This document shows positions 1 through 724 of a stretch of DNA of 724 nucleotides, piece after piece (position 1 is the first letter of the stretch; each line of letters starts with the position of its first letter). The position numbers and the translations under genes are program-made. The notes beneath the pieces are model-generated. The model had not been told where the DNA came from, searched no databases, and worked only from the letters and a program-made list of their open reading frames with translations. The stretch is taken from the NCBI RefSeq assembly GCF_003334815.1, contig NZ_QOWO01000120.1. The stretch is one strand, 5' to 3'. The stretch is from Escherichia coli. GTDB lineage: Bacteria; Pseudomonadota; Gammaproteobacteria; Enterobacterales; Enterobacteriaceae.

Positions 1-724
1 GTAAGTCACTGTGTGGATTATCATAACGGTAGCGGGTGATATCGCCGTCAGGGGCAGTTTCCTGAATCAGACGGCCCCATTCATCATATTCCCGGCGTAT
101 TTCCAGCCCGTCAGGCCCGGTGGCTGACGTTAACTGGCTGTGGTGGTTATAGTAAAACGCCGATGCCCTGCCATCCGGCGTGGTGATGCGCGTGATGAGG
201 CCCGTCACCACATCCGGACTGTATTCTGTTGTCCTGCCTGCGGCATCCGTCTGTGCCCTGAGCCTGCCCACCGCGTCAAACTGACTCTGCGTGACGCTGC
301 CGTCCGCGTGTTCCTTTTTCACCACCCGCTTCAGCCCGCCTTCACCCTGCGTGTGCAGGACTTCACGGCGGTTCAGGCTGTCGGTGATGGTGATGCGGTC
401 CTTCTCATACTGATACGTGTAACTTAAGCCTGCCGGGTTTAGCTGTTCTGTCACCCGCCCGTCGCTGTCGTAACGGTAACAGATTTCCGGTCGGCCCGTG
501 TGACGGTGCGCCACCATCCGGCCCCGGTATTTATCATCGTAAGTAAAGCTGCGCACCTGTGTATTGCTGCGGTCATACACCGCCGCCAGTTCGCCGCGGG
601 GCGTCCAGCCATAGCGCACCAGCGGCGCGGCAGGTAAATTCTCCGGGTATTCCGGGTCGTGCGTCAGCCACACGGCAGACAGACGGATGCCGTTGTCCCG
701 GCCATATTCGGTGTAACCCGGCAG
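1..724 (-). CDS. rhs: Rhs-family YD-repeat protein (polymorphic toxin core), internal fragment, partial at both 5' and 3' ends; codons run 724..722 down to 4..2, with base 1 belonging to the next incomplete codon
   Basis: Seen in sequence: I reverse-complemented and translated the window by hand; this minus-strand frame has 241 sense codons and no stop. The translation carries repeated YD-repeat signatures: FTYDDKYRGRMV (plus-strand coords ~509-544), CYRYDSDGRVTEQ (~449-478), REYDEWGRLIQETAPDGDITRYRYD (~20-91), FDAVGRLRAQTDAAGRTTEY (~221-280) and YGRDNGIRL (680-706). Established knowledge: this YxYDxxGR[LIV] pattern with ~21-residue spacing and elevated GC defines the Rhs/YD-repeat core, and I recognise the sequence from memory as close to the Escherichia coli Rhs core family. 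The family-level symbol is given because the paralog cannot be resolved; no start or stop codon lies in the window. Confidence 0.9.
   Translation of the reverse strand, partial: MPGYTEYGRDNGIRLSAVWLTHDPEYPENLPAAPLVRYGWTPRGELAAVYDRSNTQVRSFTYDDKYRGRMVAHRHTGRPEICYRYDSDGRVTEQLNPAGLSYTYQYEKDRITITDSLNRREVLHTQGEGGLKRVVKKEHADGSVTQSQFDAVGRLRAQTDAAGRTTEYSPDVVTGLITRITTPDGRASAFYYNHHSQLTSATGPDGLEIRREYDEWGRLIQETAPDGDITRYRYDNPHSDL

What the first reader, a model, noticed from the sequence alone, without database searches (positions are those of the whole stretch)
1..724. Probable multi-copy sequence that can drive recombination and confound assembly
Rhs cores usually occur in several near-identical copies per enterobacterial genome, and were first identified as sites of RecA-dependent unequal crossover (rearrangement hot spots). 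This window is core sequence, so it is likely repeated elsewhere in the same genome. Any assembly or read mapping through it may be collapsed or chimeric, and the locus may mediate duplications or inversions.
Basis: established knowledge. Interest (0 to 1): 0.3.

Follow-up and report, generated by a model that had tools for sequence, protein, structure and literature searches.

The report
Repeated Rhs toxin-gene core (rhsC)
The window is an ordinary piece of the E. coli rhsC gene core, a well-known dispersed repeat with three copies over 96% identical in K-12 that does break short-read assemblies; its sister copies rhsA and rhsB do recombine, but this copy shows only local toxin-tip swaps.

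Summary
Confirmed, and already known. The window is the reverse complement of nt 829-1552 of E. coli rhsC (100% identical to K-12) and encodes residues 277-517 of the Rhs YD-repeat core.

Copies in MG1655: rhsC 100%, rhsA and rhsB 96.7% each (the same 24 mismatches; A and B are identical to each other here), rhsD 74%. rhsE lacks this region. Of 5,426 closed E. coli genomes, 3,885 carry it, with a median of 3 copies (range 1-7). All 50 sampled records at 99% identity or more have at least 3.

- "Near-identical" fits rhsA/rhsB (99.4% over 3.7 kb) better than rhsC (97.2% to either; longest perfect run in the window 125 nt).
- All K-12 copies are direct repeats, so MG1655 cannot invert between them.
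- No gross rearrangement involving rhsC turned up, only local C-terminal tip displacement and mosaic cores.

For rhsA x rhsB, closed genomes do hold reciprocal recombinant joints: a J53 subline and FDAARGOS_1249, both combined with IS5. Published 454 assemblies break at rhsC.

Interest is low.

The parts
1..724 (-). Internal fragment of the rhsC coding sequence (gene nt 829-1552, codons 277-517 of 1397): YD/RHS-repeat part of the Rhs core. It is one member of the rhsA/rhsB/rhsC dispersed repeat.
   Evidence: Open frame. 100% match to rhsC. Pfam RHS_repeat x5. NCBIfam RHS_core positions 285-525. Homology to solved Rhs shells Tse5, Tre23 and RhsA.
600..724 (.). Longest stretch of the window that is perfectly identical to rhsA and rhsB of MG1655 (125 nt). 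It continues into the 99.5%-identical 5' part of the core.
   Evidence: Mismatch positions and run lengths. 200-nt identity profile.
1..77 (.). Second-longest perfect match to rhsA/rhsB (77 nt).
561..569 (.). Cluster of 6 substitutions against rhsA/rhsB within 9 nt. It changes two adjacent residues (N->G and T->K at window-translation residues 54-55) and marks the rhsC allele.
599..599 (.). Site that distinguishes the paralogues (gene nt 954). MG1655 rhsA and rhsB differ from the window here. Both J53 (CP028702) copies and one J53-p130 copy carry the window's allele.
   Evidence: Either gene conversion or a polishing artefact; unresolved.
481..491 (.). Interval holding a switch between rhsC-type and rhsA/B-type sequence in the kdp-locus rhs gene of E. 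coli W. That gene is C-type at gene nt 971-1062 and AB-type at 1072-1455.

Best explanation
The window is the reverse complement of nt 829-1552 of rhsC, the Rhs gene between kdp/ybfA and ybgA in E. coli (K-12-type allele).

As protein, it encodes residues 277-517 of the conserved 1,247-residue Rhs core. This is part of the YD-repeat beta-shell that, in solved homologues, encloses a variable C-terminal toxin. The gene continues through the RHS / Rhs-associated core motif to a 150-residue variable tip, followed by the small gene ybfB.

As DNA, it is one of three dispersed copies over 96% identical (rhsA, rhsB, rhsC) plus a 74% relative (rhsD). All are direct repeats in MG1655. Shared core sequence of this kind is a substrate for homologous recombination.

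Shown: rhsA x rhsB crossovers give duplications (literature) and, once an IS5 inversion has put the two copies in opposite orientation, reciprocal inversion joints (closed genomes).

For rhsC the outcomes seen are local. A new tip plus immunity cassette is recombined onto the core and the old tip is pushed downstream as an orphan. The core also shows patchy, mosaic identity to its paralogues.

Inferred, not shown: RecA dependence in these cases; that the crossovers fell inside the 724 nt; and that 3% divergence plus the megabase direct-repeat geometry explains why rhsC rearrangements are not seen.

The repeat also makes short-read assemblies break or mis-call variants here.
For: Identity and position. 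Domain map of RhsC (DUF6531 46-123, RHS repeats 318-981, RHS 1143-1179, Rhs_assc_core 1170-1247, tip without a Pfam hit). Solved homologues.

Copies and identity. Same-strand orientation.

Mosaic divergence between rhsC and rhsA: variance of 100-nt bins 10.6 against 2.8 expected (none of 5,000 random placements as high), also at third codon positions (P=0.0002).

E. coli W: kdp-ybfA | core + rhsB tip-yhhH-HEAT | orphan + ybfB | orphan + ybfC | ybgA, with alternating C-type and AB-type blocks in the core. Strain 0-4: the yibF locus holds stacked tips of rhsC, rhsB and rhsA type.

rhsA x rhsB joints. In J53-p130: yibF|rhs|yhhH-yhhJ-rbbA and nikR|rhs|yibA-mtlA. CP028702 has the parental joints at the same coordinates. 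The exchange of flanking markers is cleanly reciprocal. The IS5 joint is, and the IS5 inversion is published (PMC5968721). FDAARGOS_1249 is an independent case.

Literature: PMC2935791, PMC4340650, PMC3045373.
Against: No recombinant joint was mapped inside the window itself. The J53 crossover lies somewhere in gene nt 82-3467.

No gross rearrangement with an rhsC endpoint was found. The server's joining of BLAST pieces undercounts, however: it missed J53 for the nikR|rhs|yibA query.

Mosaic identity could partly reflect uneven selective constraint or recombination with alleles from other strains, not exchange between paralogues.

The source genome is unknown, so its own copy number is inferred from matching genomes.

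No PAAR domain was detected by Pfam, and delivery and toxicity of RhsC were not tested.
Confidence: 0.93

Rival explanations
1. The sequence is single-copy in its source genome, so it poses no recombination or assembly problem.
For: Some closed E. coli genomes have only one megablast place (H64 B strain C2566, H77 XH993, H78 VTB96816v). 1,541 of 5,426 genomes have no match at all.
Against: Those single-copy genomes match the window at only 96.7-97.2%. All 50 sampled records with at least 99% identity have 3 or 5 places, and the window is 100% identical to the K-12 allele.
Confidence: 0.03
2. The repeat is real, but this copy (rhsC) is in practice inert for chromosome rearrangement. Its 3% divergence from rhsA/B would bring mismatch-repair editing into play. 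Its direct orientation 1.6-2.9 Mb from the other copies would make crossover products huge duplications or lethal deletions. Its only consequences would be local tip exchange, gene conversion and ambiguous short-read mapping.
For: 24 mismatches in 724 nt, longest perfect run 125 nt, and 341 nt in the whole core against 1,113 nt for rhsA-rhsB. Same-strand orientation. No K-12-lineage hybrid with an rhsC flank; only 3 natural genomes have the rhsC upstream flank fused to an A/B-type tip, and the one inspected (E. coli W) is local. The rhsC-type tips found at the yibF locus in at least 12 genomes are local in the one inspected.
Against: Perfect runs of 125-341 nt are longer than the few tens of bases that established work gives as the minimum for RecA recombination (from my own knowledge, not tested here). 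In J53, rhsA is inverted relative to rhsC, so an inversion is geometrically possible there. The junction search undercounts. Rare or unstable duplications would not appear in reference assemblies.
Confidence: 0.6
3. The allele swaps at paralogue-distinguishing sites among K-12 assemblies (nt 954, 1893, 3108-3231) are short-read polishing artefacts caused by multi-mapping reads, not gene conversion.
For: CP028702 is a Unicycler hybrid assembly polished with 150-bp reads (PMC5968721). Every variant base is one already present in another paralogue, which is what mis-assigned reads would produce. An rhs assembly error that mimicked a polymorphism has been documented (PMC3045373).
Against: Real ectopic conversion predicts the same pattern. 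The structural difference between the J53 assemblies cannot be a polishing artefact, and it shows that these copies do recombine.
Confidence: 0.45

Closest known systems
rhsC of Escherichia coli K-12 (b0700; WP_000015200.1), RhsA-B-C subfamily of Hill's Rhs elements, clade I of Jackson et al. 2009
   Same: 100% nucleotide identity over all 724 bases. Same frame and same position in the core.
   Different: Nothing detectable. The window cannot be assigned to K-12 alone, because other strains (300709, CFSAN061761, A14, Z1323HEC0011) carry the identical stretch.
rhsA and rhsB of E. coli K-12, the pair that defined 'rearrangement hot spot' (Lin, Capage and Hill 1984)
   Same: Same gene family and architecture. 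96.7% identical to the window and 97.2% over the 3.7-kb core.
   Different: rhsA and rhsB are 99.4% identical to each other, 144 kb apart, and are the copies for which duplications (PMC4340650) and the inversion joints found here are documented. rhsC is the diverged copy, 1.6-2.9 Mb away, with no rearrangement found.
C-terminal displacement model of Rhs diversification (Jackson et al. 2009, PMC2935791); orphan-tip recombination in Salmonella (PMC3967940)
   Same: E. coli W and strain 0-4 show the predicted products at the rhsC and rhsA loci: a new tip plus immunity gene fused to the core, and the old tip left as a downstream orphan with a short core fragment.
   Different: In those models the recombining homology is mainly the 3' end of the core. 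The window lies 2.2-2.9 kb upstream of the tip. It belongs to the shared homology, but it is not present in the orphan fragments.
Structurally solved T6SS Rhs effectors: Tse5 (8cp6), Tre23/Rhs1 (7pq5), P. protegens RhsA (7q97), Salmonella bongori Rhs core (8qjd)
   Same: The window's 241 residues align to the YD-repeat shell of these proteins, E=8e-37 to 5e-21.
   Different: This is sequence similarity only; no structure was predicted here. Pfam finds DUF6531 but no PAAR domain in RhsC. From my own knowledge, K-12 lacks a T6SS, so the delivery route of RhsC is unclear.
Other dispersed repeats that break assemblies and mediate rearrangements in E. coli (IS elements, rrn operons)
   Same: A multi-kilobase repeat that causes contig breaks (PMC3045373) and acts as an endpoint of inversions and duplications.
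   Different: It is a protein-coding, non-mobile repeat whose copies have diverged by up to 3%. In J53 and FDAARGOS_1249 the rhs joints occur together with an IS5 joint.

Membership tests
Rhs core protein (NCBIfam NF041261 RHS_core; Pfam RHS_repeat PF05593) | Tandem YD/RHS repeats | tested here: met
   Five RHS_repeat hits with E<=0.001 in the 241-aa translation. TIGR01643 YD_repeat E=9e-19.
Rhs core protein (NCBIfam NF041261 RHS_core; Pfam RHS_repeat PF05593) | Full-length match to the equivalog model above its curated cut-off | tested here: met
   The containing gene rhsC scores 2683.5 bits against a cut-off of 2000, over model positions 1-1261. The window alone covers positions 285-525 at 476.6 bits, as expected for a fragment.
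Rhs core protein (NCBIfam NF041261 RHS_core; Pfam RHS_repeat PF05593) | Core ends in the hyperconserved RHS / Rhs-associated core motif, followed by a variable tip and a small downstream gene | tested here: met
   PF03527 at residues 1143-1179 and TIGR03696 at 1170-1247. Identity among paralogues collapses after about nt 3700. ybfB is annotated immediately downstream. An immunity function for ybfB was not tested.
Dispersed repeat acting as a homologous-recombination substrate ('rearrangement hot spot' in the sense of Lin et al. 1984) | Two or more copies in one genome with high identity | tested here: met
   rhsC 100%, rhsA 96.7% and rhsB 96.7% in MG1655. Median of 3 places per genome.
Dispersed repeat acting as a homologous-recombination substrate ('rearrangement hot spot' in the sense of Lin et al. 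1984) | Uninterrupted identity long enough for RecA-mediated exchange | tested here: met
   Perfect runs of 125 and 77 nt in the window and 341 nt in the core against rhsA/B. The threshold of a few tens of bases comes from established knowledge and was not measured here.
Dispersed repeat acting as a homologous-recombination substrate ('rearrangement hot spot' in the sense of Lin et al. 1984) | Recombinant joints between copies that exchange core-genome flanks, for the family (rhsA x rhsB) | tested here: met
   J53-p130 against CP028702. FDAARGOS_1249. 139-kb amplification in evolved lines (PMC4340650).
Dispersed repeat acting as a homologous-recombination substrate ('rearrangement hot spot' in the sense of Lin et al. 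1984) | Recombinant joints that exchange core-genome flanks, for this copy (rhsC) | tested here: not met
   Query Q2 (rhsC upstream flank + rhsA or rhsB downstream): 3 of 5,426 genomes. The one inspected is a local tip replacement, and all K-12 records are parental. Query Q3 (rhsA or rhsB upstream flank + rhsC tip): only natural isolates, and the one inspected is local. Caveat: the tool undercounts joined places.
Dispersed repeat acting as a homologous-recombination substrate ('rearrangement hot spot' in the sense of Lin et al. 1984) | RecA dependence of the exchange | not testable with these tools
   Known only from the 1984 genetics, as summarised in PMC2935791.
T6SS-delivered PAAR-Rhs effector | N-terminal PAAR domain and a cognate VgrG/T6SS | tested here: inconclusive
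   Pfam finds DUF6531 (46-123) but no PAAR_motif in RhsC residues 1-1200. No vgrG or hcp is annotated within the 16.7-kb locus. Shell homology to T6SS Rhs effectors is clear.

The most novel reading that the evidence does not exclude
Rhs cores, the repeat family this window belongs to, have produced large reciprocal chromosomal rearrangements that are fixed in closed genomes. A subline of the standard conjugation recipient J53 (at least 15 listed assemblies with several different naming schemes) differs from the published J53 genome. The difference is an inversion whose two endpoints are the rhsA and rhsB cores. It became possible only after the published 825-kb IS5 inversion had turned the two copies into inverted repeats. 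FDAARGOS_1249 shows an independent rhsA x rhsB + IS5 case. The held literature I searched does not mention this (7 papers hold the terms rhsA, rhsB and inversion; I opened only one of them and the J53 genome announcement). It runs against the 2009 statement that no rhs-mediated rearrangement is seen in genome comparisons. A weaker corollary: rhsC itself (window position 599) may exchange short patches with rhsA/rhsB on laboratory time-scales.
Probability: 0.7. Interest if true: 0.35.

Novelty: already known. Interest (0 to 1): 0.15.

Why it matters
For this window the value is practical. Variant calls, read mapping and short-read contigs across rhsC nt 829-1552 need care because of rhsA and rhsB. 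Reads or k-mers of 127 nt or more are enough to separate rhsC from them.

The broader point is a nuance on a textbook story. The 'rearrangement hot spot' name holds for rhsA/rhsB: duplications in evolution experiments, and inversion joints in J53-derived and one clinical closed genome. For rhsC the same homology shows up only as toxin-tip replacement and mosaic cores.

People who use J53 as a reference for transconjugant genomics should know that J53 stocks differ by a megabase-scale rhs-bounded inversion.

Tried and rejected
1. Repeats inside the window. Only 17-19-nt direct matches at 76-79% and a 14-nt inverted pair were found, at chance level. The YD repeats are not repeated at the DNA level.

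2. A second copy of the window inside the rhsC locus. There is none. The only rhs-related repeat there is the 3' end of the core against the downstream orphan, 92% over 300 nt, outside the window.

3. ORFs on the plus strand (up to 95 aa). These are treated as antisense artefacts of a GC-rich coding region, because the minus-strand frame is fully open and matches rhsC.

4. Synthetic junction queries.
- Q1 (rhsA upstream + rhsB downstream) worked as a positive control.
- Q4 (rhsB upstream + rhsA downstream) returned only 3 genomes at 80% coverage or more and missed J53-p130. Local BLAST shows J53-p130 is covered 100%. The orphan core fragment in the query probably upset the joining of pieces, so all the '>=80%' counts are lower bounds.
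- Q3 was redesigned without orphan sequence.

5. My first model for J53 was a tandem duplication. I rejected it because the window has only 3 places in J53 and the regions 144 kb on either side of the joint are fec/nan and groL/cad. I replaced it with two nested inversions, IS5 x IS5 then rhs x rhs. That model predicted the nikR|rhs|yibA joint later found at 117-122 kb. Excision of the 144-kb interval as a circle followed by reintegration through IS5 would give the same product and is not excluded.

6. PAAR domain: not detected by Pfam, so not claimed.

7. Not attempted: structure prediction, protein-database searches and metagenome scans. The sequence is identical to a named, well-studied gene.

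Full report
WHAT THE WINDOW IS

The 724 bases have one fully open frame, on the minus strand starting at base 724, of 241 codons. Its translation has five significant Pfam RHS_repeat matches. It aligns to positions 285-525 of the 1261-position NCBIfam equivalog model RHS_core (NF041261), E=1.8e-142.

Megablast against 5,426 complete E. coli genomes gives 100% identity over all 724 bases to the gene annotated rhsC in K-12 strains. A few non-K-12 strains match equally well. In MG1655 record NZ_CP025268.1 the window is 729460-730183, inside rhsC (728632-732825). The neighbours are kdpFABC and ybfA upstream, and ybfB, an orphan Rhs fragment, ybfC and ISAs1 remnants downstream. This corresponds to gene nt 829-1552, codons 277-517 of 1397.

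The full RhsC protein scores 2683.5 bits against the RHS_core cut-off of 2000. Its domain map is DUF6531 (46-123), RHS repeats (318-981), RHS PF03527 (1143-1179) and Rhs_assc_core (1170-1247), then a 150-residue tip with no Pfam match.

The window's residues are homologous to the YD-repeat shells of solved Rhs effectors: Tse5 8cp6 at E=8e-37, and Tre23 7pq5, RhsA 7q97 and the S. bongori core 8qjd at about 1e-21.

COPY NUMBER

I fetched all five rhs loci of one MG1655 record and ran BLAST on them with the window:
- rhsC: 100%.
- rhsA: 96.7%.
- rhsB: 96.7%.
- rhsD: 74.4%.
- rhsE, an N-terminally truncated pseudogene: no match.

rhsA and rhsB are identical to each other across this stretch and differ from the window at the same 24 positions. 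Genome-wide, K-12 records show 3 places by megablast and 4 by blastn.

Across the collection, 3,885 of 5,426 genomes have a megablast match, median 3 places, range 1-7. At blastn sensitivity 3,901 genomes match, median 6, range 1-9.

An evenly spaced sample of 60 matching records had 3 with one place, 4 with two, 40 with three, 6 with four and 7 with five. The single-copy genomes match the window at only 96.7-97.2%. All 50 sampled records at 99% or more have three or five places. The refuting condition (a single copy in a closed genome) is therefore unlikely for whatever genome the window came from, although that genome is not identified.

HOW SIMILAR THE COPIES ARE, AND WHY IT MATTERS

Over the 3.74-kb core:
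- rhsA-rhsB: 99.4% identical, longest perfect run 1,113 nt.
- rhsC against either: 97.2% identical, longest perfect run 341 nt.
- rhsC-rhsD: 77%.

Inside the window the perfect runs against rhsA/B are 125 nt (positions 600-724), 77 nt (1-77), then 69, 66, 58 nt and shorter.

K-mer sharing with rhsA/B falls as k rises:

| k | shared window k-mers |
|---|---|
| 21 | 55% |
| 31 | 41% |
| 55 | 19% |
| 77 | 8% |
| 99 | 4% |
| 127 or more | 0% |

Of reads overlapping the window, 22% at 100 nt and 10% at 150 nt carry no distinguishing base. Every 250-nt read carries at least one.

So the window is a real source of ambiguity for short k-mers and short reads, but it is resolvable. The pair at real risk of collapse is rhsA/rhsB.

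The literature agrees. In 454 assemblies of K-12 derivatives, contig breaks common to all strains fell at rhsA, B, C, D and E, including "728806-736085 rhsC and rhs-like". One false polymorphism was traced to an rhs assembly error (PMC3045373).

ORIENTATION

rhsA, rhsB, rhsC and rhsD are all on the same strand of the MG1655 record. Recombination between direct repeats gives duplications or deletions, not inversions. For rhsC with rhsA/B the arcs are 1.6 and 2.9 Mb.

DIRECT TEST FOR RECOMBINANT JOINTS IN CLOSED GENOMES

I built synthetic queries that join the unique upstream flank of one locus, the two ends of the core, and the tip and downstream flank of another locus. I then asked how many genomes cover such a query in one place.

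Q1 (positive control: rhsA upstream + rhsB downstream). It is covered 80% or more in 825 genomes. In the K-12 derivative J53 and its relatives it is covered 100% at 100% identity.

In J53-p130 the joint runs on into core-genome genes on both sides: lyxK...selB-selA-yibF | rhs | yhhH-ISEc1-yhhJ-rbbA-yhiI. This is not a tandem duplication. The window has only 3 places in J53, and the DNA 144 kb to either side is fec/nan and groL/cad. The block ends at an IS5 that joins yhiS' to a truncated yjgL.

The J53 genome paper reports an 825,667-bp IS5-flanked inversion between MG1655 positions 3652638 and 4476957 (PMC5968721). That inversion turns rhsA into an inverted repeat of rhsB. A second inversion between the two cores predicts a reciprocal joint, nikR | rhs | yibA, about 0.11 Mb into the record. 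It is there, at 117414-121547.

The original J53 record CP028702 has the parental joints at the same coordinates: yibA<-rhsA<-yibF and nikR->rhsB->yhhH. Using those parental alleles, the two J53-p130 genes are cleanly reciprocal. One is A-type up to nt 81 and B-type from nt 3468, and the other is the reverse. The parents are identical from nt 82 to nt 3467.

FDAARGOS_1249, a clinical isolate, independently carries both joints with core-genome flanks and an IS5 at a different site.

The recombinant joint appears in at least 15 listed J53-derived assemblies with several different naming schemes, so I regard it as real. Only the raw long reads can prove this.

Jackson et al. 2009 stated that no chromosomal rearrangement mediated by rhs had been reported in genome comparisons (PMC2935791). 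These joints are counter-examples, for rhsA x rhsB. Separately, Chou et al. found the 139-kb rhsB-rhsA amplification in five sequenced evolved isolates (PMC4340650).

Q2 and Q3 (the window's own copy). Q2 joins the rhsC upstream flank to the rhsA or rhsB tip and downstream. Only three genomes reach 80% coverage, and every listed K-12-lineage record shows the parental 61%.

In E. coli W both flanks of the locus are intact (kdp/ybfA ... ybgA/phrB). The core is fused to an rhsB-type tip, yhhH and a HEAT-repeat gene. The former rhsC tip with ybfB sits downstream as an orphan. That is the C-terminal displacement of Jackson et al., not a chromosomal rearrangement.

Q3 joins the rhsA or rhsB upstream flank to the rhsC tip and ybfB. 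It finds natural isolates with an rhsC-type tip at the yibF locus, and no K-12 among the 12 listed. In strain 0-4 that locus holds a stack: core + rhsC tip + ybfB, an orphan rhsB-type tip + yhhH, yibA, further orphans, then yibH. This is again local.

Caveat. The server's joining of BLAST pieces missed J53-p130 for the nikR|rhs|yibA query, although local BLAST shows 100% coverage. Its counts are lower bounds, so the negative result for rhsC is not absolute.

TRACES OF EXCHANGE WITHIN THE CORE

The 113 differences between rhsC and rhsA in the core are strongly clustered. The variance of 100-nt bins is 10.6 against 2.8 expected, and none of 5,000 random placements reached it. At third codon positions the result is P=0.0002. 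The longest identical run gives P=0.003.

The kdp-locus gene of E. coli W alternates between K-12 C-type and AB-type blocks. One switch lies between gene nt 1062 and 1072, which is window positions 491 and 481.

Among K-12 assemblies, the paralogue-distinguishing sites at nt 954 (window 599), 1893 and 3108-3231 vary between MG1655, Calgary J53 and J53-p130. Every variant is a base already present in another paralogue. This is either ectopic gene conversion or short-read polishing error.

VERDICT

It overstates the case for this particular copy in three ways: identity is 96.7%, not near-identical; the copies are direct repeats; and no rhsC rearrangement was found. Novelty: already known. Interest: low.

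The J53 and FDAARGOS_1249 rhs-bounded rearrangements are a modestly interesting by-product.

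Noticed in passing
L006 (NZ_CP111008.1 4053802-4058037) and L011 (117414-121547), compared with L013 and L012 (NZ_CP028702.1, same coordinates): Two closed assemblies of the laboratory strain J53 differ by an inversion whose endpoints are the rhsA and rhsB cores. J53-p130 has yibF|rhs|yhhH and nikR|rhs|yibA; CP028702 has nikR|rhsB|yhhH and yibF|rhsA|yibA. The J53 genome announcement (PMC5968721) mentions only the IS5-flanked 825-kb inversion. At least 15 listed J53-derived assemblies carry the recombinant joint.
   Followed up: yes
L014 (NZ_CP069459.1 2692294-2714435) and L015 (3313433-3335573): Clinical isolate FDAARGOS_1249 independently carries both reciprocal rhsA x rhsB joints, on opposite strands about 620 kb apart. 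An IS5 truncates the yhiJ-like gene next to one of them. Its full chromosome structure was not reconstructed.
   Followed up: partly
Gene nt 954 (window position 599), 1893 and 3108-3231 of rhsA/rhsB in L003/L002/L017/L018 (MG1655), L012/L013 (J53) and L006/L011 (J53-p130): Paralogue-distinguishing sites differ among K-12 assemblies, and every variant is a base found in another paralogue. At nt 954, J53's rhsA and rhsB carry the rhsC allele. Gene conversion or a polishing artefact; unresolved.
   Followed up: partly
(825 of 5,426 genomes); L016 (NZ_CP076262.1 4014078-4034119); L009 (NC_017635.1 787327-813807): The tip plus immunity cassettes that K-12 has at three separate loci (rhsA-yibA, rhsB-yhhH, rhsC-ybfB) occur at other loci, or stacked in one locus, in natural isolates. 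For example, the yibF locus carries an rhsB-type tip in 825 genomes. Locus names such as 'rhsB' or 'rhsC' in PGAP annotation follow the tip, not the chromosomal position.
   Followed up: partly
Tool behaviour, one search compared: search_dna_similar did not join the two halves of a synthetic junction query in J53-p130, although local BLAST shows 100% coverage with a 2.9-kb gap. The likely cause is that an orphan core fragment repeats part of the query. Counts of 'places covering >=80%' are lower bounds for queries that contain internally repeated sequence.
   Followed up: yes
L001 1-2753 (NZ_CP025268.1 735.4-738.2 kb): Downstream of the rhsC element there are three ISAs1/H-repeat remnants (ybfD, an internal-stop copy, and ybfQ) that are 80-96% identical to each other over 300 nt. 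This is another local repeat family beside the rhs core.
   Followed up: no
and summaries: A few matches to the window lie on plasmids: 2 places by megablast and 16 by blastn, including a 404-kb record of strain TUM18781 at 74.5%. So Rhs cores are occasionally plasmid-borne in E. coli.
   Followed up: no
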